A stretch of 63,131 nucleotides of DNA, filler included, from Reclinomonas americana ATCC 50394 (taxonomy: Eukaryota): NCBI GenBank assembly GCA_048213135.1. It is 5 parts of 3 records of this genome, joined end to end, with 100 filler letters (N's around TTAATTAATTAA, not from the genome) between each part and the next. Parts side by side here need not be neighbours in the genome. Positions count along the whole stretch, not along the records: positions 1 to 10,551 come from PS015103.1; 4 more parts are not named here. The stretch is one strand, 5' to 3'. The notes under the pieces are model-generated. The model saw only the letters and a program-made list of their open reading frames with translations, made no database searches and was not told where the DNA came from. The translations under genes were made by a program, and so were the position numbers. Of this stretch, positions 1-48,400 are shown piece by piece; the first letter of the stretch is position 1, and every line of letters starts with the position of its first letter.

Positions 1-520
1 TCACGCTGGCATCTATCTCTCTCTCATCGACATCAACTGTCGCCTCCTGCTCGGCACCGGCACCCTTACTGAGTAACTGTGCTAGGTTTCCCATGATTGA
101 CGTCAAATCTTCAACCCCGGGTACTCCGCGCAGTTGAGACGGTACGACCAGTGTAGTGCGCATCAGCTCAAAGGCCTCTGAATGTCGATCCAGCAAACCC
201 AAGGCTTTGCTAACTTCACCCTTCGCAAGAATCGTCACCACGTGGTCATCGCCAAAATCACGACGGTATCGCGCCAAGAACTCCTCGAGAACTGGAAGCG
301 CGCTCGCAGGGTCTCGCGCATCCAGCACACACTTAACGTGAGCGCCCGCCGCTGGAATCGTCCACTGTGTGTTGTTGGGACCGAGCAGCTCCAAGAAGAC
401 GGGCACACAGTCGGCGAAGAGTGCAAACGCCGAATGAAAGTCTCCTGATTTGTAAGCTGCCATCGCCACACTGAAGCGTTCAGTCGCCGCCGCCAGTCGC
501 CGATTCTTTTGTTGATCCAT
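1..520 (-). CDS. TPR-repeat protein fragment (kinesin-light-chain-like TPR), open to window start
   Basis: Minus frame from ATG at 520 (MDQQKNRRLAAATERFSVAMAAYKSGDFHSAFALF...RDFGDDHVVTILAKGEVSKALGLLDRHSEAFELMRTT...) has no stop to position 1. The G-D-D-H-x-x-T motif is of the same TPR type as the ORF at 751. Confidence 0.55.
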   Translation of the reverse strand, partial: MDQQKNRRLAAATERFSVAMAAYKSGDFHSAFALFADCVPVFLELLGPNNTQWTIPAAGAHVKCVLDARDPASALPVLEEFLARYRRDFGDDHVVTILAKGEVSKALGLLDRHSEAFELMRTTLVVPSQLRGVPGVEDLTSIMGNLAQLLSKGAGAEQEATVDVDEREIDASV

Positions 521-750: not shown

Positions 751-3700
751 ATGTGTACGCGTGCCCTTGAGATGAGCCGCAATCTTCTTGGTGCTGACCA
801 TCCGCAATCGCTGGACGTTGCTGCAAGTCTTGGGGAGGCACTATGCAAGATTGGTCGGGACGGGGAGGCCATTGATGTGTTACGCGACACGGTGCAGCGT
901 CAGAAACGGATGTTGCCAGAGAGTAGCACGGAGACAATGGTCACAATGACCTGCCTCGCCCAGGCTCTTCACAACACCGGCGACAGCAAGGCTGCAGTGG
1001 AGATTGGACGCGAGTTGCTTCTACGACGTCGCAAATTCTGCGGTGACGATGACAACAACACAGTCGAAAGCGCCTACCACCTAGGCGAGCATCTTCTTGC
1101 CGTCGGCGGCAAGCGCAATTTTGCGGAGGCCTTTAATTTGCTTACTGATACGCGCGAGCGGTGGACTCGGCTGCTTGGTTCTGACGCACGGAGCACACTT
1201 GCTGCGTCGTTCAGACTTGGGCACGCCCTGCGGCGACTCGGTCGACCTCAGGAAGCCGTTGAAGCGCAGTGTGATACACTGGAGCGGCTGAAACGGTTGC
1301 CTGTACCGGATAAGAGTCTCGAGGTGGCGGTTATGGTCGATCTTGCATACGGCTATGCGGAGTGCGAGAATTACGTAGCGGCAGTTCGAGTCGGTCGAGA
1401 ACTAATCCCTCTTGAACGACAGCAGCTTGGCGATGACAGCCCAGTCACGGTGAACAGTATTCGGACCTATGCGGCCAGTCTCGCGGCTGTTGGCGGGGTC
1501 GCGAACATCAAGGAAGCGGAGCGCCTAATGGTAGAAATCATGAGCAAGCGGGACCGATTGTCTGGTCCTGAATTTGGTGCAAAGGAAGACGATGAGAAGC
1601 TTATGTTTGTAATCCGTGTCGCACTTGAAGGAGTGCCGCGCGGTGAAGAAGAGGGGACAGAGACTAGCAAGAAGAAGCGGGACTCTTCTGCTGGTGAGTT
1701 TGTGCCTTGTCTCCTCTGATCACCGCCTTCTCTTACTCACTTTCTTCGTGTGCTTGTGGACGCAGCAGTGCCTGTCGACGCCACTCATTCGTCCTCTCGA
1801 TCATCGGTTTCGTTGCTGATCACGCAGGCCTCTCCTTCATGTGACGTGACCACTTAAACGGCATGCGTCCCCGCAGGCATCCGGAGCAACCTCCCCACCC
1901 GTCGTCGCCTCCTCTTCATCTCGCACACCAGCCGAGAAGGTTGACCCCGTCGGCCGGGCCGGAGGTGGTAAAGGACAAACTGTGGTCCAGCCTGATGCGC
2001 TGCAGCAAGATCTGGACGAACAGCGGCAGCGGGCAAGCGAATGGCAGGCGCGTGTGGAGCACCACGAACAAACCGCAGCTCAGTTGCGACAGGAAGTTGA
2101 GGCAGCGCAGCGTGGAAAGGAGGCATGGCGGCAGCGGACAAGCGAGTGGCAGGAGCGTGTGCGGCAGCAGGAGGAAACTGTGCAGCGGGTGCAACAGCAG
2201 ATGGCGGGACTGCAGCGACAACTGGACGAGCAGCAAGCACAGATGAGCGACTGGCAGCGGCGTGTGAAGCAGCAGGAAGCGACTATTGCTGAGCATGCCG
2301 CCTCGCTCCAACAGCACGAAACTGCGCGTACCGCGCTGCAGGAGGCGCTGGATCGTGTGGACGAACAGCGACAGCGCGAGCATGACCGAGCACAACGACT
2401 CGAGGCTGATTTGGCTGCCGTGCAGCGCGATCTCACCCACCGAGGTATGTGTGGCAGCAAGAGGGGAAGGAGGAAGAATGATGACTGCAGACTCACTTGT
2501 TTGATGATGATGTAGCGCCGTTGACTGCATTTTCTTGGGAACAAGTGGTGTCGATGAGCAACAATTTTGCGGAGCGACTCGGTGGCGATGGTGGACAGGG
2601 CAAGGTGTTTTGTGGGCAGTGGGCCGGACAGAGTGTGGCCATCAAGGTGTTTGACAGTGCGCTGCCGTGGTGCATTGAGTCGTTCTCCAATGAGGTGAGG
2701 GTGGTGGATGGGGGAAGGATGAGAGAAGGAAGTTATTTTCTTCTCATTCTCTTTCTGCTTGCATCTCAGTTGGAGAAGCTCAAGGCGGTGAGTGTGGCTG
2801 GCGTTGTACCGCTGATTGGATTTGCGGAGTCGGACGACGGCAAGCGATGTGTGGTGCTGGAGGCGATGAGGTGAGTGTGAAGAGAAGAGGGCGAGCAGAG
2901 ATGTAAGGGACGCAAGCGGGTTGAGTAAGACTTAATGAGAGAGCATGAACGTGGTTGCCAGCTCGTCTGTTGTAGATGCAGTTTTCCTGTCTTTCCGTCT
3001 GTCTTGATTGATGATCACCACCACGCCTCTTTGTCGTTCCCGAGAGAGGATGGGAGGTGTCATCTGTTCATGTGCACTCACTCCTTCGTGTTTCACAGTG
3101 AGCACAACTTGGAGCACCGACTGCTGCAGTGGGCGGAGCGTGGACTGCCGGCCATGTCGATTGAGGCACGAATGACGTGCATGCTGCGATGTGCCGAGGC
3201 TGTTGCTTCGCTGCACAAGTTGCGTGTCACATGTCTGTTGTTTCCTTCTTCATGGGTTTCGGGCTCACGTTGCTGATGATGCAGGCATGTGAGTGAGAGA
3301 TGTCATGCGTGTTGTCTGTGTGCGTTTGCTTCATTCTTCTCTTTATTGACTCACTCGTGCCTTTCTGTGCGCTTGTCTGGGTGCGCAGAATGGTACGTGT
3401 GTCTGTTCTGCGTCCTCTGCTCATTTTCTTCCATCCACTCACTTTCTCTCTCTCTTTTTTCTCAGTGATCCATCGCGACCTGAAGCCAGCCAACATTCTG
3501 TTCAACCACAGTGGAATGGCCTACATCGCGGACCTGGGAGTGGCACACTGGTTCCGCACCGAGGGGGTGAGTGACACTTTCCTGCCCTGTCACTCCCTTC
3601 CCCTTTCCTCCCCTCATCCCTTCCCTCTCCTTCTCCCTCTTCGTGCCACAGACGCACTTGTCTGTTCACTTTGCTGGCGACCCAAAGTACGCCGACCCCA

Positions 3701-4293
3701 AAGCCATGCACGGCCAGCTGCGGCTGAGTTCGGATGTGTTCTCGCTCGGTCTCGTCCTCCTGCAAGTGTTCAGCGGTCTGCCGATCGAGGAGGTGCATCG
3801 GCGAGTGGAGACACTGGAGGAGATGGACGATGTGGGTGGCGAATCACTGCTCAAAGCCGCGGTGGATCTGGCCGACGGTGGCGCTGGTCGACCGTGGCCG
3901 GCTCCTGTGTGTGAGAGGATTGTGCGATTGGCACTGAGGTACCTTGTGTGTTTCCAAGAGAGCGTTGCGAGGAGACACGCTGACTGTCGTACATGGCCAA
4001 TTTGTAGATGCCTGGATGGCCGCCCAGCACGCCGTCCGACGGCACAGCAACTGGCGAGCGAGTTGAGTGACCTGACGGTGCTGTCGTGCCGGCGGGCGTG
4101 CATGGTGTGCGACGGGCTGCGCGAGACGCGACTGCGTCCGTGCATGCACCAAGTGTTGTGTCGGGAGTGCGCAGAGCGGCTGGTGAGCAAGAACGGCGAA
4201 TGTCCAGTGTGTCGCGTGCGAGTGGAGGGTGTGGATGCGGGCGAAGGATACGGGTTCCACACGTATGTGGGTCTCCCGGCGCCGCGGCGGTGA
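751..4293 (+). CDS. Multi-exon TPR + coiled-coil + Pelle/IRAK/RLK-like Ser/Thr kinase + C3HC4 RING protein (5' end in gap)
   Basis: Phase-consistent GT-AG exons ~751-1693, 1766-1806, 1877-2444, 2516-2694, 2770-2870, 3099-3218, 3285-3288, 3389-3392, 3466-3566, 3652-3938, 4008-4293. Motifs: LLGADHPQSL TPRs; Q/E-rich coil; FSWEQVVSMSNNF..LGGDGGQGKVF, VAIK, HRDLKPANIL, ADLG, YADP, SDVFSLG, LALRCLD..P.RRP; RING CMVC..PCMHQVLCREC..CPVCR. Confidence 0.8.
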
Positions 4294-4988
4294 TGCGTGA
4301 GGGGAGAAGGTGTATTTTAGATGTAGGAGTTGCGTATAGAAGGAGAGTACAACCGCATGTCGTCAATAGTGTCGATGTTGTGTGTGGGAAAAGGTGTGTT
4401 GTAGATGCAGCAATCTTTTCTTGCGGACTTCACGGATCCGGACCCGGTTGTGCTTTGTTTGCCTGGCTATGGCCTTTTTCCCCGAGATTGGATACGCCGT
4501 GTACGATCGCAGAAAACGCAATGCGTCCATGCAAGTGCGTCAAGTCCACTGTTACGGCGAAGATCGCAGTTCTCGACATGTTCGGGGCTCCGCAGTGAGA
4601 GCGAACACACACACTGCTGCCTCAAGATTGGTGTCTGTGTTGATCGGTTGAACTAGGTCATCAAGACAGCTGTTGCTCGTTTGTTAGTGAATGAAGTGTT
4701 GCTGGTAAAGTACTGCTGCCGTCGAGATTGGTGTTTGTGAAGATGATGCTTGGATACGGGTGGTCTTGGCGCCGGCCATATGTATCGAAATCGCGATCAA
4801 GACGACGACTGCAGTTGGTGAATCAAATGTTAACGTTGCAACAGGGAGTGCAACCGTGGACTTCCTCTTTCGACCTCGACTATACACCCGCTTGTACTGC
4901 AAACTCCATTAGCATGGCTTACGCTTGTTGCGCGGTGTTCAGGAGGATACAGAAAGTCCTCTTGTCCTCGACATCATCAATCGCTTCA

Positions 4989-6615: not shown

Positions 6616-9600
6616 TCACTTGCGATTGCTGCTGTACGAGGCCGGTCCACGGGCCGGCCACGACGACGATGATTGAGCTGCTGCGGTGGCGCTGGTCGTC
6701 GTGGTGGTCGTGCTGCCACTGGAACCCATCTCCGTCCACTCGGCGAGCTCGGCGACAGAGACTCCTGATCCTAGTGGATCCATACCGGTGAGGCGAATGG
6801 TGTCGGGATCGTCGTCGGTGTCCACTGCACGCACGCCAGAGATGGCCAGTCGAGCCGATGTCGGTTTCTTGCCGGCCGATGGTGTGGACGGTGACACGGG
6901 GGAAGCAGCAGCAGCAGCAGCAGGCGACAATGGTGACTCTGCTTCCCTTGCTGGTGGTGGTGGTGGTGTTGGCGGTGGCGCTGGAGAAGCGGGCGGTGTG
7001 TCGACAACCGTCACAGTGGCGGCAGTTGTCGTCGTCGTCGTCGCCGTCGTTGTTGCAGCAGAAGCATCTGTCGCCGAGCCCGCCGCCGCTGTCTTCACCG
7101 CCACCGACGCCGCCGCCGCTGCCGTCGTCACGTGCATTGGGCGCGGCACCTTTTCGATCGGCGTGGTCTCACCAAGCGGAATGTAGTCCTTGTCCTGTAT
7201 CGCGCGCTATCGATGAACAAGGGCCCTCATTTGCCACACGCGCACGCGCACACGCAACTTCCAGATGAGAGACCAAGAACAGACCCACATCCTCCGAGCG
7301 CCAGTACCCAGTGTGCGCACCACGCAGCGACGACACGTACTCCGACACCGTCTGCAGAGTGCTCTCTTGCAGCACAAAATCGATGCGCGGGTATTCGGCT
7401 TTCGGCGCGCTGCCCGACGCTGCAGCGGCTGGCGCGGCGGCAGAGGCTGTGGTCGAACCGTCGCCCTCGGCCTCCATCGTCGACATTTGTGCCGCCACCT
7501 CGGTTGCCAGCTCCAGCATCTCCAACTCGCCACCACCAACATTGCCTCCTCCGGCTGCCGAGGCAGCAGCAGCCGTAGTTGCGGTCGTTGTCGTCGACGA
7601 CTGGGTCGCAGCGGCGGCGGCGGTCTCCTCAGCCGCCACTGCAGCCGCCACGGCCTCGGCTGTCAACACGTCCTCGTCGCGGCCGCGAGAAAAGAACTGC
7701 ACACGAGGGGTCAGACAAATTGCGCCTATTCCGGGCTTCCTCCGCATCAATACGCACCCTTTTGACGGCCACTGTCGCACGTGCGATTCGCTCCCGAAAG
7801 TTGCGGTGCCATCGCTTGCCGGTCGAGTGTCGCCAGAAACGCATCTCCACTGGCGGTCGCGCCTCTGCTCCACATCCCGGGAAGAACAGCGGCTCCAGCC
7901 GATAGGCCACGGCATCGTACGGGTGGAAAATGTTGAAGAAACCACGGTGCACCGGCGGCCACATGGGCGGCGTGTCGAGCGTGGACGCCATCTCCCCGCG
8001 ACCGGCCAGGAAGATGCCGAGCGGGGAGCCGAGCGCAAAAAAGTTGTCGGCCTGAAAATCGAGCGTGGGGAAGCCCGGCTGACCTTGCTTCGTCAGAATG
8101 TCGTATGCAATCACGGAGCCGAGGGAGTGGCCGACAATGGAGATGGCGCCCTTGTAGTTGTACTTGCGCTGGAGATCGCGATAGATTTCGTTCATCTTGG
8201 CCGTCACCGTCTCCACAATCACCGACGAGTAGTGCGGCGACAAGTAGAACATGACGTCGACGAGGGCCTTGTTGATGAGGTGGCGCAACTTGGCGACCTT
8301 TGGCAGCGTAATGCCCTCCACAATGTCGTCGACGCCCTCCTCCTTGTGAATCGCCGTCGACCACTCGACGCAAAACACGGCAATCTGGCTCTTTTCGTGA
8401 AACACTTGCTCCTGCGCCGTCATGAGGGTGGTGCGGAACATGTCGGCTGCAGGGGGCGGAAGGGGGGAAGGGAGATGAGAAGGAGCGAGAGGGGGAGAAC
8501 GGGGAGGAGAAGGAATGCGAAGGAGAGAAGGGGATGAGAAGGAACGCGAAGGGAAAAGGGGATGAGAAGGGAGAAGGGGAAGAGAAGGAGCGAGAGGGGG
8601 AGAAGGGGATGAGAAGGAATGCATAGGGAAGGGGATGAGAAGGTGTGCGAAGGAAGAAACAGGATGAGAAGGAGGAAGTAGATGCGTAAGGGGAAACATG
8701 GGGTCTCAGTGACTCTGGGTAGTCTCACGACAAAGGTGAGAGGTGTCTCCCTTGCGAGAGTCCCCACAACAGAGAATCACGGACTTGTAGAGACATTGCA
8801 AAAGAGAAGGGCATTGATGACAGTCCCCACAACAGATGAGATTCCAGTCTCTGTGCGTGCACTCTAGCATTCACACCAACGGAAGCGTGTTCATCATTGA
8901 AAAGAGTGAGAGAAAGGAAAAGCGAGGCAAGTGTGCACCGTTTTGCAAGGAGACGGACAGCAGAGAAAGAATCCGCCGTTGAATGAGCATCGTGTCCGTA
9001 TGAGAACTCGACACTCCGTAACTGACGAAAAAAAGAAAGAAACAAGAGCTGCGTCTCTGTGTGCGTCTCTGTAATTACCCCACTTCCCCCCCGTCGCCAC
9101 GCAACAAATCTCCTGCGCAGTCTTGAACCTCCCACCCTCCTCCCGACTCCCAATGCCCAACACCACAATAATCGCATGCGCTCTCCCCGTCATCACCGGA
9201 TCGCGTCGCCCACTCGCATGCACCGCCGGCACAGGCACCGCTGCCGCCTTGACCTTCTCCTTCTCCTTCTCCCTCGCCTGCTGCCTATGCGCGCGCCTGC
9301 GCAGCCTCCGCCTCTGCCTCCGCTCGCCCACCTCCACCAAGTCATCCTCCGCGCTGTTGTCACTGCTGCCTCCGCCCGCCTCCTGATCACTCGCATCGTC
9401 GTCGCTCTCGTGATCGCTCACCTCACTGCTCACAGTCGAGGTGGCAGTCAGAGTCGGCGATCGCTGCTCTCCCTCATTGTGATCGTTCTTGTCTGCGGCG
9501 GCGGCTGCGGCTGCTGCCTGAGGAGACATGATGCCTGAGCGCAAGGAACCGGTGGATCCGCCTCCACTGGACGATGACATGGGCATCATTGGTCGCTCGT

Positions 9601-15000: not shown

Positions 15001-18000
15001 AGTTTCTTCGCCTCACCCCCCGGCAATCCGTCGTCGCAAGAGTCGGCCGAGGCCACTGGCGAGCAGCGCGAGGGCGTCAATGGCGGCCTGGACAAGATTT
15101 TCTCGTGCGTCCACCCCCCTGGCATATCGCCTTTTTTCTTTTATTATTGCTGACACTCCCCCCACACAGTGCACTCGTAAACGAGGAGCTGCATGTGCAT
15201 TTGGATGCGCGCGGCTTCCTGATCCGCGTTCCCATGGTGGTGCCGCGAAACAGCTCGTCGTCGACGCCAACATCGGCTGCCGCCGGCAGCTCGCTGACCG
15301 TCGCCACCCCCGGCGCACCCACCACTGCCGCAGCGTCGCCGTCGAGTCCTTCGGTTGGCCGCCGAGAAGTGTGGACGCATGTGCATTTCGGGCGCTTCTT
15401 TGTGGCCAGCGATTACGACATGTTCTCGGCCGATCCGCTCAGTCCCGAACTGTTTCCGCACCTCACCAAGACCGACGCACCCGGCGGCTACGATGATTTC
15501 CTGTGTCGTAACGCCGTGGCGCGTGCGTCGTTGTCGCACCGCGCCGTGGTGATTCTGCGCGAGACCTACATTGACATTATCACCACGGAGAAGCGCTCGC
15601 GCGGTGGTATCAATGGCATTGGTGTGACGGTGGACACCAAGGAGTCGAGGTACTCGGTGCTGGAGCCGTTTTCGTTAAAGGTCGAGGCGCAGCTGCGTGA
15701 TTTGTCTGAGCTGGACCCGCTGATTGTGCCTGGGTTGGAGGCCATGGTTCGTTTCTGTCGCACTTTGTCTCCCTTCCTTGAGAATCTTCCCCTCATCTCT
15801 CTCTCTCTCTCCGCGCAGATCCACTGCTCGCAACTGCGTATCCACCTCATGAAAGAGGACTGCTCCATGTTCCTGCAAACCGTCAGCCACGCGCTGCACG
15901 AAATCGACCGTGTGATGACCCGCTACACACCCGACAGTCTTCCCGGCTCGTTGGCCACGTTGCGTCTTGTTTTTCGAGAGAGATATATATGTAGTTGCTG
16001 ACCTCACTCCTTCTCCTCACTCGACAGACCTGGTGTGAGTGGCTCGGGCACCGGCTACGTGGACTCGCCATCGCATCAAGAATCGCTCGGCTCCTTCCGC
16101 GACATGGACACCGAAGATCCCATGCTCATGTCGGTGGCCGAGCAAGGCCTCCAGATGACGGCGTGCGTTTCATTAGCGCTCAGCGACTTCCTCGTGCTGA
16201 TGGGTCGCAAGAAGGAGATTGCGTATCGCTTGCAAGTGCGCAACTTGGAAGCCAGTTTTGAGGTTTGTACCGGCGATGGGACTTTGTTTTTCTGTCGGTA
16301 TCATCATTTGACTGCTTGGCGTCGTCCAACAGCACCACGCCAACAAGGTGGTCGGCAAGGTGCATTTGGGATCGTTCTCGGCCAGCGACGTTCGTGAGCC
16401 GGTCGACTCAGTGCACGCGCTGCTGGTGTCGCACTCTACCACTGGTCAGTGTTCTTCGTTTCTGATATGTCGTTTGCATGTCGTCTTTCGACTCATTGAT
16501 GTCCTTTGCCCAAAGACCCGAATGTCCCCCTGCTGCAAATCCGCGCCGTCATTCCCAAGGCGGTGGATGCCGACGGTGGCATTGGTCAGCTCGATGGTGT
16601 GTGATGATGTTTTTGAATCACTGATTCCATACCCACCCATTTTTCCTCTCGCAGAGGCCGGAGAGCTGCGTGTTCGTCTCTCGTCGCTCCGCTTCGCATT
16701 GGTGGCGCGCAAGTTTGCGGAAATCCGAGTGCTGGCCATGGATGCGTGAGTACCAATGTGGAATGAGAGAAGAGGCTGTTTTCTGTCACCTCATTCTCCG
16801 CCCGATTGCTCTCGACTGTTCGTCTCCTTTTCGCTCCATGGCTCTCTTTTTCCTCTCACTTGTCCCCTCTCCTTCCACTTTCGTCTCACTCTCCCNNNNN
16901 NNNNNNNNNNNNNNNNNNNNNNNNNNNNNNNNNNNNNNNNNNNNNNNNNNNNNNNNNNNNNNNNNNNNNNNNNNNNNNNNNNNNNNNNNNNNNNNNNNNN
17001 NNNNNNNNNNNNNNNNNNNNNNNNNNNNNNNNNNNNNNNNNNNNNNNNNNNNNNNNNNNNNNNNNNNNNNNNNNNNNNNNNNNNNNNNNNNNNNNNNNNN
17101 NNNNNNNNNNNNNNNNNNNNNNNNNNNNNNNNNNNNNNNNNNNNNNNNNNNNNNNNNNNNNNNNNNNNNNNNNNNNNNNNNNNNNNNNNNNNNNNNNNNN
17201 NNNNNNNNNNNNNNNNNNNNNNNNNNNNNNNNNNNNNNNNNNNNNNNNNNNNNNNNNNNNNNNNNNNNNNNNNNNNNNNNNNNNNNNNNNNNNNNNNNNN
17301 NNNNNNNNNNNNNNNNNNNNNNNNNNNNNNNNNNNNNNNNNNNNNNNNNNNNNNNNNNNNNNNNNNNNNNNNNNNNNNNNNNNNNNNNNNNNNNNNNNNN
17401 NNNNNNNNNNNNNNNNNNNNNNNNNNNNNNNNNNNNNNNNNNNNNNNNNNNNNNNNNNNNNNNNNNNNNNNNNNNNNNNNNNNNNNNNNNNNNNNNNNNN
17501 NNNNNNNNNNNNNNNNNNNNNNNNNNNNNNNNNTTCTCCCTCTTATTTATCCAGCTTGGATGGCTGGAAGAAGCCGCCGCCGCCAACCGCCCGCCGCAGT
17601 GGCCTGCACCAGCGGAGATCGTCAAACCAGGATTTCGGCGAGTTGACGTCGACGGGCGAATCCGAGCTGACCATGGGCTCCGGCTCTGGCCACTCTCTCT
17701 CCCAAGCTCGCTCGGCGGCCTCGGTGGCTGAGAGCCTGACGCGCGGCTCGTCGGCGCCAAAGTCCGGCGCCTCGCTGTTCCCGCTCAGCAGTGTCAACGT
17801 GGACATTGTGGCGCGCGAGACCGAGGTGGTGATCCTGAGCAAGGTCGGCACGCGCAACTCCATTCCCATTACTGTGGGTGCCGTCAAGTTTTGGCGCGAG
17901 GTCGACATTTTCAACAAGCAGACCATCAACATTTACGCGCAAGATGTGGCCGTCACCACCGCGCTGTGGGAGCATGATCAGTTCGTGGCGCAGTACCTGG

Positions 18001-29500: not shown

Positions 29501-31301
29501 CGAGTCGGCCAAGAGGCTCAAGTTGCGTAGCGCAGAGTGTGAAGAACCATGATGCGCGAGAAATGCTGACTGTGTGTATTTCCTTGAATATTGCTGCAGG
29601 ACACAAGCGGCAGAGGAGAGTGCGGCGGCGGAGGCGCGTCATGTGGCCGAAGTGGAGGCACTGCGGCTGCAATTGGATCTCGACAAGCGCAACTTCACCG
29701 ACAGTCTGCGCGCCCAGTACGAGGAGAAGCACGCTGCGTTGAAGGCCACCTACGACGAGTTGCTGTCGGACCGCGACAGCGGTGTGGAAGCGGAGCGTGT
29801 GCGGCTGCACGAGACGTTTGCGCAGCAGTCGCAGACTCTGCGCTCGCAGCTCGATCAGATTCTGCGCCAGAAGGACGACGATGTGAAGATCATGCTGCAG
29901 CAGGCCGAGGAGCGCTTTGCTCAGATTGACGCGGAGCGACAGGAACGGACTGCGCAGCAGCTGCACAAGTCGTTGGTGGAGCGCCGCGAATACGAGCAGC
30001 ATGTGCACGAGCAGGCGGAACAGCGCATCGAGGAGGTTCGCGACGGCCTGCGCAAGGAGCTTGCGGAGGCACTGAAGCGGGAGGAGGACGAGCGCGAGCA
30101 GCGGGATCGGGTGGCGACGGAGAAGGAGCACTTGGAGGCGCAAGTTCGCAAGTTGAAGCAGACGACATTCCGCTGGCGTGTCGACTACCAGCGGGAGACG
30201 CAGGAACGGTACAGCAACCTGCTGGCCGACATGGAGGCACGTCTGCAGGGCGAGTGCGAAGACTTGCGACGACAGATTCTGCAAATGCAGGAGTTGCACC
30301 GACAGGAGGTTCTCACGTGGCAGGAGAAGGTTTGTCGCCGCGGATTTTCTGCGNNNNNNNNNNNNNNNNNNNNNNNNNNNNNNNNTTGCGTTGGTTGATT
30401 GATGGATGACTTTACTGATCATCATGTCATTGCAGGAGGAGAAGCGGCAAGAGGAGGCTGCCGAACAGCTGCGACTGCGCATGGCCGAGGAGCGTCGCAA
30501 GGCGGTGGAGGACGCCGGTCGTGCTGAGGCCGAGGTGGAGAAGAAGCAACGACTCGGTCGCATGAAGATGCGACTGGTGGAGTTGTGGCAAATGTTGGAG
30601 AGCGATTCCGGCGATCGTGCGCGCTTCTTGCAAGAGTGCGAGACGGCACGCAACGATGCATTCACGGACACGGTGTTTGAGTTGTATCGACAGGAGGTGG
30701 CCAAGTTGACCGACCAGCTGCCGCTGGTGGAGACCATTACCCGGCGAGAATTCGTCAAGTTCCGCCTGAAGGAGTTCACCAAGTCAGCCTCCGATCCGCA
30801 GCGTCTCTTCCAGGGCGATCCACAGCGGTTGCTGCGCGAGGAAGCGCAGCGCAAGGAGCTGGACGTGGAGATTCGACGGCTAAACGACATTTTGCTGAAG
30901 GAGTTGCCGGCGTACGAGAAGAAGGTGTGTGTGTTTCTCCATTCACCAACCATAATTTCTTGGCTCGCTGTCCTCACATTTCTTCTCTTCTGCCCTCTGC
31001 AGCACAATTGCCGCTTCATGTACAAGGGCGAGTACTACCTGCAGCTCATGTCTCACGACGTCATTGACGAGACACGGCAAGTGGAACAGGTTTGTGCGCA
31101 GTTGTCTGTGAAACGTCGACATGATGGTGATGGTGATGCTTACTGGCGAGAGAGCAGGAGGTGCGAGCGAAGCAACAGGGAGCAATGACACCGTCGAGTG
31201 GACAACCCGAGTTTTTGTCACCAATGGCCAGTCCATTGTCGGCCACCAACGGCAGTGCTGCGTCAAGACGCCGTGCGACACCAACAGGACCGCGGGCATA
31301 A
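23516..31301 (+). CDS. Giant coiled-coil protein with C-terminal MAP65/Ase1/PRC1 microtubule-binding domain
   Basis: About 20 in-phase exons of E/R/Q/A-rich heptad sequence. C-terminal LVELWQML..EVAKL..KEFTKSASDPQRLFQGDPQRLLREEAQRKEL..LPAYEKKHNCRFMYKGEYYL resembles the PRC1 motif ASDPNRF..LLKEEKQR..WEQEH..FMVNG. Stop TAA at 31299-31301. Confidence 0.75.
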
Positions 31302-41251: not shown

Positions 41252-41540
41252 CACTCACTCACTTACTCTCTCTCTCTCTCACTCTTTCTCTCTCACACTC
41301 ACTCACACACACACTCTCTCTCTCACTCACTCACTCACTCACTCACACTATCTCCCTCCCTCCCTCATACACAATCACTCACTACCTCCCTCATACTCAC
41401 TCACTCCCTCACTCACTCCCTCCCTCCCTCCCTCCCTCCCTCCCTCCCTCCCTCCCTCACACACTCACTCACTCACTCACACTCACTCGCTCACTCACTC
41501 CCTCCCTCACACACTCACTCACTCACTCTGTCTCTCTCTC
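41158..41540 (+). repeat. (CT)n / (CACT)n / (CCCT)n compound microsatellite
   Basis: Direct reading. Confidence 0.9.
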
Positions 41541-42704: not shown

Positions 42705-45445
42705 TGTTTTCCCCTTCCCCTTCCTCCCCCCTCCCCCTTCTCCTCCCCCCTCCCCCCTCCCCCCTTTCCCTTTTCCCCCTTCCCACCTTCCCCCTCCCAG
42801 ATTCCTGGCCGACACCTACGTCAACCGCCTCGGCACCAAAGTCCGCGATCTCCCCCCGGAGCCCGCACAGCAACTCCTGGCCAAGTGCAGCAAGCAACGC
42901 ACTGTGGACTTGCGTCCGATCCACCGCTGGCACGCCGTGAAGCTGTGCGCGCCGCGGAACCCGCGCGAGTCGCCGAACGCAGGTCCCGCTGGTGCCCCCA
43001 AGCCGCGACCCCTCTCCACCCTGGCCACTGGCCTGTGCGAGTCCGACGGACAGACCGATGTCGCGCTCTCGGTGCACTCGTACGACGACATCTACTGCAT
43101 TGTGCGACCGCCAACCGATCCCACAGTGCTAATCATCCAGTACACCAACGACTACACGCACCGCTACGCGTGCGAGCAGCGTGAGGAGGTGGTGTCGTCG
43201 CTCATTGCCATGTGCGATCGGTCGGGGAGGCGCAGCTGGGTGCGCGCGTCGATGGTGCCCGCGGGTGCCGCTCTGCTGCCACTCCAACTGACATCGCACG
43301 AGCTGCTGTCGGATCTGGAGGAGTATCTGGTGAAGCAGCTGACGCTGTCGTCGACCAAGGGACCGCAGGAGTGGAGGTGGGTGTTGGGAGGTTGGTGGGA
43401 GAGGGAAAAGCGCGTGATATGCTCATCGACACCGTGTGTACACACAGACGTGCGGCCGACGAATTTAACGCGTCGTGCAACGTCGGTGCATGCGTCACCA
43501 AGGATAAGAAGGCCTTTATGTTGGTGCTGGATTTGCTGTCGCGAGCCATGGGCGACAAGGACCCCGAGGTGCTCACCGCGCTTCTCAATTGTGTGGAGAG
43601 GTTCCTGGGCTCCAAGGGTGAGTGCTGAGGGCAGAGTATAGAGGGAAGGAGGTCATTGAGAAAAGACAGGACAGGGTGAAGTTTAATGACGGCAACGCGT
43701 TTCGTAGGCGACAATGAGATGTCACTCGTTTTCATTGTTTTCTCGAACCTCGCCCTCTTCATTGTTATCTATTCTCAATTCCTCTCCTCCACAGCCTGCT
43801 TCACCGCTGTTCCACAACTGCAATCGGCATTCTCGGTTGTCTATCAATTGGTCACCACCTCGATGGACCAGGAAGTCGTGTATGCGGCCACGCGAGTGCT
43901 TCGCCAGGCTGCCGAGCAGGCGTTTGAGACGGACAAGACCCGCTATGAGCAGGCCAACAAGCAGGTAAATAGACGTGTGTCAGTTTTCCTGGCACGCCAA
44001 CCGCGTGGCACTCAATCAGCGCGGCGCAGGCTATTTTTGACGAGAGCTCAGTCAACACGCTCATCGACCAGGCCTTCCGTCGGCTTGAGAATCAGCAGGT
44101 TCTGAGCGCCACCGGCATTTTTCAGCTGCTGTCGTCGCTGCTGCACTGGAACTACGGCTCGACGCCGAACAATGTGCTGCAGTCGGCTCTGCGTGCGCTG
44201 CAAACGCGATGGGTTGCGTCTTAATTGGAGCTGGCACTTGTTCCTTGTGTTTCCTCTCACTGTTTTTTTGGTGCTCCGCGCAGCTGCAGCTTGTGGAGCT
44301 GTCGCTCTCACCCGCTCTGGGCATTGCCGAGAACGCCGCGTGTCTGGTGAAGGTGCGCAGCGAGAGTTGTGGGTTTCGAAGTTGTTGATTCTTATCTATT
44401 GTGGCATGCAGTCCCTGTTGTCGCTGGTTCGTCGCGATNNNNNNNNNNNNNNNNNNNNNNNNNNNNNNNNNNNNNNNNNNNNNNNNNNNNNNNNNNNNNN
44501 NNNNNNNNNNNNNNNNNNNNNNNNNNNNNNNNNNNNNNNNNNNNNNNNNNNNNNNNNNNNNNNNNNNNNNNNNNNNNNNNNNNNNNNNNNNNNNNNNNNN
44601 NNNNNNNNNNNNNNNNNNNNNNNNNNNNNNNNNNNNNNNNNNNNNNNNNNNNNNNNNNNNNNNNNNNNNNNNNNNNNNNNNNNNNNNNNNNNNNNNNNNN
44701 NNNNNNNNNNNNNNNNNNNNNNNNNNNNNNNNNNNNNNNNNNNNNNNNNNNNNNNNNNNNNNNNNNNNNNNNNNNNNNNNNNNNNNNNNNNNNNNNNNNN
44801 NNNNNNNNNNNNNNNNNNNNNNNNNNNNNNNNNNNNNNNNNNNNNNNNNNNNNNNNNNNNNNNNNNNNNNNNNNNNNNNNNNNNNNNNNNNNNNNNNNNN
44901 NNNNNNNNNNNNNNNNNNNNNNNNNNNNNNNNNNNNNNNNNNNNNNNNNNNNNNNNNNNNNNNNNNNNNNNNNNNNNNNNNNNNNNNNNNNNNNNNNNNN
45001 NNNNNNNNNNNNNNNNNNNNNNNNNNNNNNNNNNNNNNNNNNNNNNNNNNNNNNNNNNNNNNNNNNNNNNNNNNNNNNNNNNNNNNNNNNACCCGTCGCG
45101 AGATCCAAGATGCAGTGCGTGCCAACGCAGCGTACTTGCCACTGCTCGCTCACGCCGCGACCGTGGGCTCCGCCTTCCTTCGTGATCTGTACGCCTCGGT
45201 AAGTTGGTTGTGAGGACAGGCGATGTGATTTACTCTCTGCTCATCACTTGCAAATTGTAGGTCCTCGGACTGCTCTGTGAGGGCGTCACGGAGACCATGG
45301 ATGTGTTGCAGCGCATTTTCCCGCGCCCTCTGTTCAAGGCGTTGGTGTCGGACGATGTGACCAGACGGTTTGTTCAGAAGAAGGCAGGAGATGTTGCAGA
45401 GTTGACTGTCGCTATGCGTTGTCACACGCACATGGACGCAATTGC

Positions 45446-45483
<38 letters not shown>

Positions 45484-48400
45484 TCTGTTTGTTTTCGTTC
45501 TCTCTCACTCTCTCTGTTTCTGTCTCTCTCTCTGTTCTGTCTCTCTCTCTCTGTGTCCCTCTCTCTCTCTCTCGCTCACTCACTCACACCACTCTCAAAA
45601 CACACACGCTGCATGTCGCTGAAGACTGCCTGCTTATTCTTGCACTTTTCCTTCGAGAGCGTCATCGTCCAATCGTTCTTTTTCCTTGAAACGCCTCCCT
45701 CAGTGCTCTCGCTTGCGCTTTGCCTCTATTACCCGTCCCCCAGTTTCTCCTCCTCCTGCCTCCTCTGTTGGTCTACTCTTTGTATCTCATTATCCATTTC
45801 TGCACATCCTTCTTCTCTCCTCGTCCCTTGCATCATTCCTTCGTTTCCCCTTATCGTCGTCATCCAATCTTTCGTTCTCTTTCAACTCCCTGTTCACCCT
45901 TTCCCTTCAATCTTTTGTTCTCCACTTGTCATCTCCCCATATCCTTATCTTTGTCGCTTCCCCCCTCATCTCCCCTTCTCCTTCTCCTTTCCCTCCCCTC
46001 CCCCCTCATTCCCTTTACCTTCCCCTTTCCTTCCATCTTGTGTTCTCCTCATATATCCGACTTCTCATCCTCTTCCCTTCCCCTTTTGCTCCCCTCCCTT
46101 CCGTCGTTCCCTTTACCTTCGCCTTTCCTTCCTCTCCTTCCCGTCACTCCCCCCTCTCCCCCCTCACTCCCCCCTTCTCCCCCCTCACTCCCCCCTTCTC
46201 CCCCCTCCCTTCCCCTTCCGCTTCCCTTTCCCTCCCCTTCCCCTCCCTTCTCCTTCCCTTCTCCTTCCCATTCCCCTCACCTCCCCCTTTACCCTTGTCG
46301 CAGCGCCCCAAGCCTCTGGCGCAAACGCGGCCCGCGCATGGGCGACGCCGGTCCGCCACTCCCCCTCGAGCTCAAGTGGCAGAATATGTTCGAGCACGTG
46401 AGTGACGACCACCAGCGTGGCGAAGTGATTTGGAATGACCAGACGCGCGCCGAGTTTCGACACGCGTTGCTCACCGAGTACGCCGCGTTCCGCGAAGACC
46501 TGGTTTGCGCTCCCCGCATGATGTTTAGCTCCTTTGCGGTGCTCCTTCTCACTCCCCGCTCCCCGGCAGGCCAAATTCCCGGGCTCGGTGGTGGAGTGGA
46601 ACTCGGACGAATTCACGGTGCGCTACGAGAGTCTGGAGAACGAGCTGCGAGTCGGCGGTTTCTACCTCGGCAACTACCTGCGCGAGGTGGAACGCATGGG
46701 CTTTGGCAAGGAGAGTGAGGTCGACGACCCCATGGCCTTCCTGGACGACCTGCATCACCGCCTGCTGTTTGACACTCGCCCGGAGACGCAAATGCTCTGC
46801 CTGAAGACCATGGTCATTGTGTACACGATGTACCGGCAGAAAGTCGGCGTGTACCCCTTTATTAATCACCTGTGCCAGGCACTGGTCAAGTTGCGTCACC
46901 CCCTGCCACTCACACTTTTTTCTTGCTTGGTGTGCTGATGGGGGAAAGTACACTGTACAGCTGGGAGTACTTGCCGGCCAAGATCCAGCTGCTTACCTTC
47001 CTGCAGCAGTCGTTCTCCAGCGAGCAGAACGTGAAGCTGTTTGTCGACAATGGCGGTGTCGATTTTTGCATCTCGGTGCTGCCGCTGGTGCACTCGCTGC
47101 CGCCACCATCGCCCGACGGCGTGGTCTCTGAACGTTGCGGCCTCGTCCGACGCTGTCACAGTCTCTTTGGGTGGTTGCTCACCGTTGTGTCGCGCGCGTG
47201 TGATTGTTTGTCGCAGACACGGAGTTGGTGATTCTGGTGCTCCGTTTGCTCATTCGCGCCGCCTCGTTCCACCCGAGCCTCGACGAGGACGGCAATGTGC
47301 TGGTGCCGCTGCCGCGTGTCAAGCGACTCCTCAGCTCGGAACGCCTGCTGCCACACATTGCGCAGTTGCTGTTCACCACCAACGACACGGTGCTGTCGCT
47401 GGTATCGCAGCTGCTGGAGACACTGATTGAGCACAATCACGAAATTGGTATGAGCGAGAGCCGCGCGCGCTGTGCCTGATCTCTCTCTCACCCGCTGACG
47501 CATTTCTCTCTCTCTCTCTCTCACGTGACAGGGCATCGTCTGTACCGCACCGGCATCTTCTTCTTCCCGTTCCTGCACGACGGCAAGCGATTCGCCGCCG
47601 TCGCACCGATCCTCTACGCAGCCCACATGGTGCAGAAGCGTGTGCCGCCGGTGGCCCTGGAAGAGATCATGCCGTACAATCTGGTGCGCCTGCTGGAGGA
47701 GAGTGGAGCGGCGACGTTTGTGGCCAGTTTCCAGTCGGACATGGAGAGTCCGTCGCTCATCTGGAACCAGGTGAGAGCGCGGGCGCTTGTTGTTTCATGC
47801 TGAGAAAACAGCATGATCTGACATTGTCTCTCTTTCCTCTCTCACGTCGCAGACCATGCGACAGTCGTTGGTGGCGCACATGCGCGCGCACTTGGCGCCC
47901 TTTTATCACCAGCTGTCGGCGGCTCCCGGCACCAGCGTCTACAGCCTGTCGACCAGCTTCACGCGCATGGAATACGGCCATCTCACGCAGGAGCCGCGCT
48001 GCGGCAAGTACTTTTTGCGGTATCTGTTGGACCAGAGCCGCTGGCCCGCCGGCTTCCAGATCGCCCCCGTGTCCGAATTCCTGGCCGAGGCCACGGATCT
48101 GATGCAGCAGCTCATTGTGATTCACGCTCAAAGCAATGTCGACATTTTCATGCTGATCGACGCCATTAACATTGTGTGGCCGCGGTACGCCGAAGATGCC
48201 GCTGTGCGCAACTTTGCGTACTTTGCGCCGTTGATTCCGTGCATGGCGGTGAGTGAAGGATGGAGGAAGAGGGAGGTGGAGAGGGAGAAGGGATTGGGGC
48301 CTCATCTTTCTCCTCTTCTATTTCCCCTTTTCTCTCCCGCTCTTCTCTAACACTTTATCCTTGTTTGGCTGTCTCGATTCCTCATCATTCTTCTCTCTCT

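What the first reader, a model, noticed from the sequence alone, without database searches (positions are those of the whole stretch)
3219..3465. Two consecutive 4-nt micro-exons complete the segment before the kinase catalytic loop
Seen: CAG|GCAT|GTGAGT (3285-3288) and CAG|AATG|GTACGT (3389-3392) each have strong splice signals. Joining ...CAC AA + GCAT + AATG + TG ATC CAT CGC GAC gives L-H-K-H-N-V-I-H-R-D-L-K, the canonical spacing before HRD. Skipping one or both with the 3219 donor breaks the frame. Tandem non-multiple-of-three 4-nt exons are very rare, are missed by annotators and could act as an on/off splicing switch.
Basis: partly seen in the sequence, partly recalled or inferred. Interest (0 to 1): 0.7.

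Follow-up and report, generated by a model that had tools for sequence, protein, structure and literature searches.

The report
Two tandem 4-base exons in kinase gene
A kinase gene of an unidentified intron-rich eukaryote very probably needs two neighbouring exons of only four bases each to keep its reading frame just before the catalytic loop, an extreme example of a known and often mis-annotated kind of gene structure, so far unconfirmed by RNA.

Summary
CAG|GCAT|GTGAGT (3285-3288) and CAG|AATG|GTACGT (3389-3392) lie on the coding strand, between exon 3099-3218 and the HRD exon 3466-3566 of an RLK/Pelle-like kinase-RING gene.

Support for both 4-nt exons being spliced in:
- Each of the three resulting introns (66, 100, 73 nt) has its own CTCAC branch-like motif, and its acceptor is the first AG after that motif. 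Their lengths match the gene's other short introns.
- I enumerated 560 GT-AG paths across the gap; 74 are in frame and stop-free. The path using both 4-nt exons scores best against an HMM of 57 homologous kinase segments, though margins over the next paths are small.
- It gives LHKHNVIHRD. The nearest relatives (Closterium proteins) read IHAHNIVHRD and LHGQNIIHRD.
- The rival single intron gives LHKLLIHRD, a spacing seen in 0 of 57 homologous segments.

Limits: no RNA run, whole genome or orthologous DNA was available, so inclusion is inferred, not shown. The first donor (GTTGCG) is weak. The on/off-switch idea is untested.

Exons of 1-15 nt and adjacent 5+12-nt microexons are already published, so this is a new member of a known kind. 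Confidence in the model about 0.7; interest modest.

The parts
2516..2694 (+). Kinase exon (N-lobe: glycine-rich loop, VAIK lysine)
   Evidence: In frame in the spliced model; aligns without gap to the homologue HMM. Flanked by TAG| and |GTGAGG.
2770..2870 (+). Kinase exon (ends ...VVLEAM)
   Evidence: It contains an unused GTGAGT at 2788.
3099..3218 (+). Kinase exon ending ...AEAVASLH + AA (first two bases of the Lys codon)
   Evidence: Aligns to the 'argLeylH' part of the homologue HMM.
3219..3284 (+). Intron IA, 66 nt, with weak donor CAA|GTTGCG. The branch-like motif CTCAC lies at 3264-3268. The acceptor CAG at 3282-3284 is the only AG in the intron.
   Evidence: Its 3' end resembles that of the homology-supported intron 2445-2515 (CTCAC..TGATGATG..YAG), seen by reading.
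3224..3229 (+). Alternative weak donor GTGTCA (rival single-intron model B, exon end 3223)
   Evidence: in frame with 3466, giving LHKLLIHRD.
3285..3288 (+). Micro-exon 1, GCAT (third base of Lys plus His codon CAT)
3289..3388 (+). Intron IB, 100 nt, with donor GTGAGT and ACTCAC at 3349-3354. The acceptor CAG at 3386-3388 is the first AG after the motif.
3389..3392 (+). Micro-exon 2, AATG (Asn codon AAT plus first base of Val)
3393..3465 (+). Intron IC, 73 nt, with donor GTACGT, ACTCAC at 3437-3442 and a CT-rich tract. The acceptor CAG at 3463-3465 is the only AG in the intron.
3466..3566 (+). Catalytic-loop exon: TG + IHRDLKPANILF...ADLG...
   Evidence: Pfam Pkinase profile positions 120-149, 31.0 bits for this exon alone against a cut-off of 31.7. 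The TGA at 3466-3468 comes into frame if one micro-exon is skipped.
3652..3938 (+). Kinase C-lobe exon (95 codons)
   Evidence: Query (46 hits).
4008..4293 (+). Last exon: end of the kinase domain plus a RING finger (zf-C3HC4_3), with the stop at 4291-4293
   Evidence: 41 bits, cut-off 27.

Best explanation
The 247 bases 3219-3465 are not one intron. They are three short spliceosomal GT-AG introns (66, 100 and 73 nt) separated by two constitutive coding exons of four bases each, GCAT (3285-3288) and AATG (3389-3392).

The eight bases complete Lys and encode His, Asn and the first base of Val. The mRNA then reads LHKHNVIHRD at the junction of helix E and the catalytic loop of an RLK/Pelle(IRAK)-like kinase with a C-terminal RING finger.

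Mechanism (inferred). This organism has short introns, each with its own branch-like CTCAC motif, so splice sites are probably paired across introns rather than across exons. On that view a 4-nt exon is no obstacle. An acceptor and a donor 4 nt apart cannot plausibly be occupied at the same time. The introns are therefore probably removed one after the other, most likely the two with strong donors (IB, IC) first and the weak-donor intron IA last. Omission of one 4-nt exon puts the TGA at the start of the next exon in frame. Only the doubly included form can make a kinase.
For: Shown by sequence:
- Both modules are exact. Two CAG-N4-GTRHGT modules in one 242-nt gap are far beyond the shuffle density (estimate about 2e-5). 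2 of the 5 full branch/YAG/short-exon/donor modules in the whole window are these two.
- Each sub-intron has a CTCAC or ACTCAC motif whose branch A lies 17, 35 and 24 nt from the intron's last base, and the acceptor is the first AG after it. The same motif lies 18-26 nt from the 3' end of introns 1694-1765, 2445-2515 and 2871-3098 of the same locus.
- Sub-intron lengths of 66, 100 and 73 nt match the gene's other short introns (71, 75, 85, 69 nt).
- The whole 247 nt holds only 6 AG: three are the acceptors and three lie in GTGAGTGAGAG.

Frame and homology:
- Of 560 enumerated GT-AG paths, 74 are in frame and stop-free. The two-4-nt path ranks 1st of 74 against an HMM built from 57 kinase segments of 54 homologues (174.8 bits). 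It is also the only path that uses both strongest donors. Model B ranks 24th with 165.7 bits.
- Residues between the LH histidine and HRD in the 57 segments: 4 in 0, 5 in 14, 6 in 2, 7 in 5, 8 in 11, 10 in 23, 11 in 2. Among the 14 with five residues, the third residue before HRD is N in 5, G in 7, K in 2 and never V.
- The closest relatives (Closterium proteins, 38% identity in the C-lobe) read IHAHNIVHRD, IHAHKFIHRD and LHGQNIIHRD.
- BLASTP to P0016, P0004, P0001: model A 79.3, 77.4, 77.8 bits; model B 72.0, 69.3, 69.7 bits.

Precedent: 1-nt exons and an RT-PCR/RNA-seq-validated adjacent 5+12-nt pair (passages read in PMC8831610 and PMC11096116).
Against: - No transcript evidence of any kind is available here.
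- The first donor, CAA|GTTGCG, matches none of positions +3 to +6 of GTRAGT. It is the weakest donor in the gene. The homology-supported donor GAG|GTACCT at 3939 also lacks G at +5.
- The HMM margins over other in-frame paths are small: 172.3, 171.5, 171.3, 171.2 and 170.0 bits against 174.8. Homology alone does not exclude them.
- A perfect GTGAGT sits unused inside exon 2770-2870 at 2788, so a strong hexamer is not proof of use.
- The relatives are distant (31-38% identity over the aligned stretches), and their loop length varies from 5 to 11 residues.
- No orthologous or paralogous DNA could be compared.
Confidence: 0.7

Rival explanations
1. Model B. One 242-nt intron runs from the weak donor TGC|GTGTCA (3224) to the acceptor at 3465, and the two CAG-N4-GT modules are unused decoys. 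The protein reads LHKLLIHRD.
For: It is in frame and stop-free. The gene does hold one long intron of 228 nt (2871-3098). An unused GTGAGT exists at 2788. The donor of the favoured model is just as weak.
Against: - A 4-residue spacing is seen in 0 of 57 homologous kinase segments.
- It has the lowest score of the four named models (165.7 against 174.8 bits) and ranks 24th of 74 in-frame paths.
- It is 7-8 bits lower than model A against each of the three closest relatives.
- It needs two complete intron-like units to be ignored, each with a strong donor, a branch-like motif and a first-AG acceptor. It also leaves their joint occurrence to chance.
Confidence: 0.1
2. Only one small exon is used. 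The options are an 8-nt exon GCATGTGA (3285-3292, donor GTGAGA, LHKHVMIHRD), an 8-nt exon AATGGTAC (3389-3396, donor GTGTGT, LHKMVLIHRD), or one 4-nt exon combined with the donor GTCACA at 3226 (LHKLRNVIHRD or LHKLRALIHRD). These forms might also exist as minor alternative isoforms beside the main one.
For: All are in frame and stop-free, with 5 or 6 residues before HRD and HMM scores of 171.5, 171.2, 170.0 and 167.9 bits. GTGAGTGAGA holds two overlapping donors 4 nt apart.
Against: - Each option skips one complete strong module and uses a weaker donor than the one 4 nt away.
- V at the third position before HRD (the two 8-nt options) occurs in 0 of the 14 homologues with five-residue spacing.
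- All score below the two-4-nt path.
Confidence: 0.1
3. Both 4-nt exons are used, but the first intron starts further downstream at the weak donors GTTGTT (3237) or GTTTCC (3240). This gives a longer loop (LHKLRVTCLHNVIHRD or LHKLRVTCLLHNVIHRD), as in plant-type relatives.
For: Both are in frame, at 171.3 and 168.0 bits. Homologues have up to 11 residues in this loop.
Against: The first intron would be only 48 or 45 nt, shorter than any of the gene's nine modelled introns (66-228 nt). The donors are no better than GTTGCG. The closest relatives have the 5-residue loop.
Confidence: 0.04
4. The locus is not a working gene here: a pseudogene, or a local assembly error in a very gappy scaffold. On that view the frame arguments carry no weight.
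For: The scaffold holds 29 runs of N, 7306 of 63131 bases. No public protein matches this gene closely.
Against: - Six further exons stay open and align to kinase and RING profiles without frame breaks.
- HRD, DLG and the VAIK lysine are intact.
- There is no N within 1800 nt of the site.
Confidence: 0.05

Closest known systems
Ultra-short coding microexons (1-15 nt) of plants and streptophyte algae. Examples are the 1-nt exons of APC11 and VPS55 and the adjacent 5-nt + 12-nt exons of a Peptidase M1 gene (PMC8831610; PMC11096116; passages read).
   Same: Internal coding exons far below the size that aligners and gene finders handle. They are flanked by ordinary GT-AG introns with strong GTRAGT donors, are often not a multiple of three, are needed to keep the frame and a conserved domain, and are frequently missing from annotation. 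PMC8831610 also states that Pkinase is among the top domains encoded by microexons in Chlamydomonas.
   Different: Here both neighbours are only 4 nt, so three introns fall within 8 coding bases. Neither is a multiple of three on its own; only the pair restores the frame. There is no RNA or cross-species support yet, and the organism is unidentified and not shown to be a plant.
Earlier findings of this scan: a 2-nt exon in Naegleria Zn2Cys6 genes (e1-636783) and a 6-nt exon supplying the AP of the kinase APE motif (e1-635319).
   Same: Tiny constitutive exons in short-intron protists, inferred from frame plus a conserved motif.
   Different: Those are single microexons in another genome. They are AI notes that I did not re-test.
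Recursive splice sites (zero-length exons, AG|GT) of long Drosophila introns (PMC6110457; search listing and abstract only).
   Same: An acceptor directly followed by a regenerated strong donor inside what looks like one intron, with stepwise removal.
   Different: Here 4 nt stay between AG and GT and must remain in the mRNA for the frame. The introns are short, so no stepwise removal of a long intron is needed.
Micro-exon genes (MEGs) of schistosomes, with long runs of tandem microexons
   Same: Several very small exons in a row.
   Different: As I recall, MEG exons are 6-36 nt, symmetric (multiples of three) and used for protein variation. Here the exons are 4 nt, asymmetric and obligatory.
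RLK/Pelle/IRAK-type protein kinases. The nearest library proteins are hypothetical Closterium proteins P0001, P0004 and P0016.
   Same: N-terminal FSWEQV..NNF..LG.GG.G motif, VAIK, HRDLKPAN and a 5-residue LH-to-HRD spacing with H/N.
   Different: Only 31-38% identity over the aligned stretches. DLG replaces DFG, and YADPK sits where relatives have Y..PE. The protein has a C-terminal zf-C3HC4_3 RING and possibly an N-terminal TPR/coiled-coil part.

Membership tests
Ultra-short internal coding microexon (15 nt or less) between spliceosomal GT-AG introns | AG acceptor directly upstream and GT donor directly downstream of the short segment, on the coding strand | tested here: met
   CAG|GCAT|GTGAGT and CAG|AATG|GTACGT.
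Ultra-short internal coding microexon (15 nt or less) between spliceosomal GT-AG introns | Each flanking intron is a complete intron in its own right (branch site, first-AG acceptor, length usual for the genome) | tested here: met
   Lengths are 66, 100 and 73 nt. The branch A of CTCAC or ACTCAC lies 17, 35 and 24 nt from the intron's last base. The acceptor is the first AG after the motif. The gene's other short introns are 69-85 nt. The branch sites are inferred from the motif, not mapped.
Ultra-short internal coding microexon (15 nt or less) between spliceosomal GT-AG introns | Inclusion is needed for the reading frame and restores a conserved protein segment | tested here: met
   In frame only with both exons when the 3219 donor is used. 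Best of 74 in-frame paths. Spacing and H/N residues match relatives.
Ultra-short internal coding microexon (15 nt or less) between spliceosomal GT-AG introns | Junction-spanning RNA reads or cDNA | not testable with these tools
   No usable run was listed and no whole genome is held. RT-PCR is needed.
Ultra-short internal coding microexon (15 nt or less) between spliceosomal GT-AG introns | Conservation of the microexon in orthologues or paralogues | not testable with these tools
   There is no second kinase in the window. The one metagenome locus was a spurious GC-rich match. No look-alike window exists in the scan.
Recursive splice site (zero-length exon) | AG and GT directly juxtaposed, so that nothing remains in the mRNA | tested here: not met
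   Four bases lie between AG and GT at both sites, and they are needed for the frame.
Spliceosomal twin intron (stwintron) | An internal intron interrupts the donor, branch or acceptor signal of an outer intron, which is rebuilt after the first splicing step | tested here: not met
   By inspection, removing any one of the three introns creates no new donor, branch motif or acceptor. All signals are already contiguous in the DNA.
Eukaryotic protein kinase domain (Pfam Pkinase), RLK/Pelle/IRAK-like | Profile match over the domain, with the VAIK lysine, HRD catalytic loop and DFG/DLG | tested here: met
   The catalytic exon alone scores 31.0 bits against a cut-off of 31.7 on Pkinase. The spliced model scores 174.8 bits over positions 26-318 of a 351-position HMM of homologues. 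VAIK, HRDLKPAN and DLG were read directly. Subfamily placement rests on the nearest hits being Closterium and plant receptor-like kinases, not on a tree.

The most novel reading that the evidence does not exclude
The pair of frame-breaking 4-nt exons is a built-in splicing checkpoint or switch. Leaving out either one puts the TGA at the first bases of the catalytic-loop exon in frame. The cell could then shut off this kinase-RING protein by changing the efficiency of three closely packed splicing events. A predicted 12-bp stem (3227-3238 with 3281-3292) that covers the first acceptor, micro-exon 1 and the next donor might tune this. It would also be the most densely interrupted piece of coding sequence that I saw reported in my two literature searches (three introns in 8 coding bases).
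Probability: 0.1. Interest if true: 0.6.

Novelty: new member of a known kind. Interest (0 to 1): 0.35.

Why it matters
If confirmed, this is an extreme and clean test case for how a spliceosome handles an acceptor and a donor only four bases apart, twice in a row. It is also a warning for annotation. Any gene finder or RNA-seq aligner that ignores exons this small will either frameshift this kinase or choose the weak GTGTCA donor and delete a residue next to the catalytic loop. It adds a non-plant-model example to the published evidence that ultra-short exons sit in conserved domains and are systematically missed. It does not reveal a new mechanism.

Tried and rejected
- RNA evidence: the look-up of sequencing runs for 780-4400, kind rna, listed no RNA holder, so read laying could not be used.
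- Whole genome: none is held, so paralogues could not be searched.
- The search for homologous proteins with the 95-aa C-lobe exon and with an RME-8 ORF gave nothing at E <= 0.001. The longer-protein search is limited to 2000 residues.
- Metagenome scan with the C-lobe exon gave 1 locus (L001, 32% identity). Its ORFs are those of a GC-rich, apparently bacterial contig with no kinase, so I dropped it as spurious.
- Earlier findings of the scan, searched by place, sequence and specific words: nothing.
- Pfam on the upstream 40-aa exon alone gave no hit, so its profile position could not be read off. I used my own HMM instead.
- Introner or repeat origin: blastn of the three introns against the window found only low-complexity (CT)n matches of 21 nt or less, and no similarity among the three.
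- Rfam on 1700-4400: two matches at E 0.37 and 0.6, far below the gathering scores, so no intronic RNA gene.
- Taxon: DDHD-domain hits are 29-53% identical, mostly animal SEC23IP/DDHD2. The nearest kinase hits are Closterium and plants. The organism stays unidentified.
- An unsupervised list of donor/branch/AG units (144 units) was too noisy for a donor weight matrix. I used it only to see that many candidate introns are 61-75 nt, and to find the unused GTGAGT at 2788.
- tblastn with 12 DDHD proteins gave only two exon blocks, too few introns to enlarge the splice-site sample.
- The first regex census of spacing mis-counted double-His cases. It was replaced by the hmmalign census.
- GC-AG donor at 3222 (would give LHKLHNVIHRD): considered by hand and set aside as a poor GC donor; not scored.
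Full report
**What is there**

The window is a gappy eukaryotic scaffold: 29 runs of N, 7306 of 63131 bases. Exons are GC-rich and introns are short and CT-rich.

On the + strand lies a multi-exon gene. The exons I could fix by frame and homology are 2516-2694, 2770-2870, 3099-3218, 3466-3566, 3652-3938 and 4008-4293. Pfam sees Pkinase in the 3466-3566 exon (31.0 bits, profile positions 120-149) and a zf-C3HC4_3 RING finger in the last exon (41 bits). Upstream lie a coiled-coil ORF (from about 1877) and a TPR_12/TPR_10 ORF (751-1716, 89.7 bits). I could not resolve the splice link between these two. It is the only kinase in the window.

**Check of the observation**

- The exon ends ...CTG CAC AA at 3218 and is followed by GTTGCG.
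- CAG|GCAT|GTGAGT has GCAT at 3285-3288.
- CAG|AATG|GTACGT has AATG at 3389-3392.
- CAG|TG ATC CAT CGC GAC has the exon starting at 3466.

Joining by coordinates gives ...AEAVASLHKHNVIHRDLKPANILF..., open through to the stop at 4291-4293. With the 3219 donor, leaving out either 4-nt exon brings the TGA at 3466-3468 into frame (LHKM*, LHKH*). Leaving out both shifts the frame, with a stop 121 codons later. Retaining any one of the three introns also ends in a stop.

**Is it more than chance?**

CAGNNNNGTRHGT occurs 7 times in the window on both strands against 3.43 expected, and 6 of 100 shuffles reach 7. The window-wide count is therefore unremarkable. Two of the seven, however, lie 104 nt apart on the coding strand in the single gap where the kinase frame needs 2 mod 3 extra bases. 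From the shuffle density I estimate about 0.007 such modules per 242 nt, so two is of order 2e-5 (my arithmetic).

A stricter module is a branch-like CT[ACG]A[CT] motif, no AG, YAG, 1-15 nt, then a strong donor. It occurs 5 times (4 places) against 1.98 +/- 1.59 in 200 Markov simulations, and 2 of the 5 are these two.

**Intron anatomy**

Split at the two modules, the 247 nt become introns of 66, 100 and 73 nt.
- The gene's other modelled introns are 72, 71, 75, 228, 85 and 69 nt.
- Each sub-intron has CTCAC or ACTCAC (3264-3268, 3349-3354, 3437-3442) with the branch A 17, 35 and 24 nt from the intron's last base. In each case the acceptor is the first AG after the motif.
- IA and IC contain no other AG at all. 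IB has only the three in GTGAGTGAGAG.
- The same ACTCAC lies 18-26 nt from the 3' end of introns 1694-1765, 2445-2515 and 2871-3098.
- The 3' end of IA (CTCAC G TTGC TGATGATG CAG) closely resembles that of the homology-supported intron 2445-2515 (CTCAC TTGTT TGATGATGATG TAG).
- The three introns are not copies of each other or of anything else in the window beyond (CT)n, so I see no sign of a repeat or introner origin.

**Weak point**

The donor of IA, CAA|GTTGCG, matches none of positions +3 to +6 of GTRAGT. But the upstream exon must run at least through LH, and every GT between 3214 and 3275 is weak. Every model, including B, therefore needs a weak donor. The homology-supported donor GAG|GTACCT at 3939 shows that this gene uses donors without G at +5. 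Conversely, a perfect GTGAGT at 2788 inside an exon is evidently not used, so hexamer strength alone proves nothing.

**Homology test**

An exhaustive HMMER search with the 95-aa C-lobe exon found 46 proteins at E <= 0.001 among 1.84 billion representatives. The best was 1.2e-17 at 38% identity. The top ones are hypothetical proteins of Closterium strains; most others are plant receptor-like kinases (8 of the 46 looked up).

From these 46 proteins and 8 further members of their 90%-identity clusters, 54 in all, I cut 63 segments around HRD-type motifs. Motifs within 100 residues of the N-terminus or 120 of the C-terminus were skipped. I removed 6 duplicates, aligned the 57 that remained and built an HMM.

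| Model | Description | HMM score (bits) |
|---|---|---|
| A | Two 4-nt exons | 174.8 |
| C1 | One 8-nt exon GCATGTGA | 171.2 |
| C2 | One 8-nt exon AATGGTAC | 170.0 |
| B | Single intron from GTGTCA | 165.7 |

I then enumerated 560 GT-AG paths. These combined all GT donors in 3214-3275 with optional exons starting at 3285 and/or 3389 and ending before any GT in the next 40-55 nt. Of these, 74 are in frame and stop-free. Model A ranks first and B ranks 24th.

The margins at the top are small (172.3, 171.5, 171.3, 171.2 bits), so homology alone does not settle it. What carries weight is that the path picked beforehand by splice signals, which is the only one using both GTGAGT and GTACGT, is also the best by homology.

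**Spacing and residues**

By hmmalign, the number of residues between the LH histidine and HRD in the 57 segments is 4 in 0, 5 in 14, 6 in 2, 7 in 5, 8 in 11, 10 in 23 and 11 in 2. Model B's spacing of 4 is therefore unseen.

Among the 14 with five residues, the third residue before HRD is N (5), G (7) or K (2), and never V. That fits model A (KHNVI) and not C1 (KHVMI) or C2 (KMVLI). The Closterium relatives read IHAHNIVHRD, IHAHKFIHRD and LHGQNIIHRD, so the very residues encoded by the two micro-exons (H, N) recur there. BLASTP of the four models against P0016, P0004 and P0001 gives A 79.3, 77.4, 77.8 bits and B 72.0, 69.3, 69.7 bits. C1 and C2 fall between the two or tie with A.

**How it most likely works**

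Shown: the signals, the frame and the fit to relatives.

Inferred: three independent short introns, recognised intron by intron and removed one after another. A donor and an acceptor 4 nt apart can hardly be bound at once. The strong-donor introns IB and IC probably go first and IA last. The 8 retained bases complete Lys-His-Asn-Val at the turn before the catalytic loop. Inclusion is probably constitutive, since every partial form is truncated.

RNA folding of 3200-3480 predicts a 12-bp stem pairing 3227-3238 with 3281-3292. It covers the acceptor of IA, micro-exon 1 and the start of the IB donor. The region's z-score is -2.52. However, 14 of 300 composition-matched controls contain a stem as good, so this is only a lead.

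**Comparison with what is known**

Passages read in PMC8831610 report:
- more than 2000 plant microexons of 1-15 nt;
- 1-nt exons in APC11 and VPS55;
- an RT-PCR-validated adjacent pair of 5 and 12 nt;
- about half of plant microexons not being multiples of three;
- Pkinase among the top microexon-encoded domains in Chlamydomonas.

PMC11096116 (passages read) confirms the 5+12-nt pair by RNA-seq in Zygnema and notes that de novo annotation missed it. RPS24 has consecutive 3-, 18- and 22-bp microexons (abstract of PMC12207440, in the search listing).

In my two full-text searches I saw no report of two adjacent exons both of 4 nt or less. That is not proof that none exists. Earlier notes of this scan describe a 2-nt and a 6-nt exon in Naegleria (not re-tested). 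The site is not a recursive splice site, because 4 nt remain between AG and GT. It is not a stwintron either, because no signal is split.

**Verdict**

The two-micro-exon model is the best explanation (about 0.7, plus about 0.04 for a variant with the same two exons and another first donor). It is unproven without RNA. The switch idea is untested. It is a new, rather extreme member of a known kind, of modest interest.

Noticed in passing
window 2-520 (- strand) and 751-1716 (+ strand), N gap 522-748: Two TPR_12/TPR_10 ORFs face away from each other across a 227-N gap. The minus-strand one begins with a Met. This is either a divergent pair of TPR genes or a contig placed in inverted orientation in the scaffold.
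   Followed up: no
window-wide; in the gene at 1735, 2491, 3076, 3349, 3437 (+): The branch-like motif ACTCAC is the exact reverse complement of the commonest donor GTGAGT. The hexamer occurs 96 times on both strands against 40.8 expected, and 0 of 100 shuffles reach that. Part of the excess is an (ACTC)n microsatellite at 41253-41526. Every intron with both signals therefore also looks intron-like on the opposite strand, and its two ends could pair.
   Followed up: partly
window 2788-2793 (+): A perfect GCG|GTGAGT lies inside the homology-supported exon 2770-2870 and is evidently not used as a donor.
   Followed up: partly
window 3227-3238 with 3281-3292 (+): A predicted 12-bp stem (2 G-U pairs) covers the acceptor of the first intron, micro-exon 1 and the first 4 nt of the next donor. 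The z-score of the 281-nt fold is -2.52. 14 of 300 controls contain an equal stem.
   Followed up: partly
window 1694-1876 (+): The link between the TPR ORF (donor GTGAGT at 1694, phase 1) and the coiled-coil ORF (open from 1850, acceptor CAG|GCA at 1877) is unresolved. The only in-frame paths I found by hand need a 31-nt intron (1846-1876) or a 2-nt exon CA (1766-1767). There is no homology to decide between them.
   Followed up: partly
window 7196-8444 (- strand): A DDHD-domain phospholipase gene (SEC23IP/DDHD2-like), with a long exon 41-44% identical to animal proteins and a second block at 7196-7387.
   Followed up: partly
window about 42997-46500 (+ strand): Exons of an RME-8 (DNAJC13-like) gene, separated by very CT-rich introns and N gaps.
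   Followed up: no
window 30403-31185 (+ strand): An ORF with a MAP65/ASE1 match exactly at Pfam's cut-off (26.9 bits).
   Followed up: no
window 15998-16040 and 61671-61721 (+ strand): Two further branch/YAG/short-segment/strong-donor modules: CAG|ACCTGGT|GTGAGT and TAG|T|GTGAGT. At the first, the sequence after GTGAGT looks coding, so it is probably chance. The second lies in CT-rich sequence with no gene model.
   Followed up: partly
window 3466-3468 (+): The catalytic-loop exon begins with TGA. This is read as a stop only when exactly one of the two 4-nt exons is missing.
   Followed up: yes
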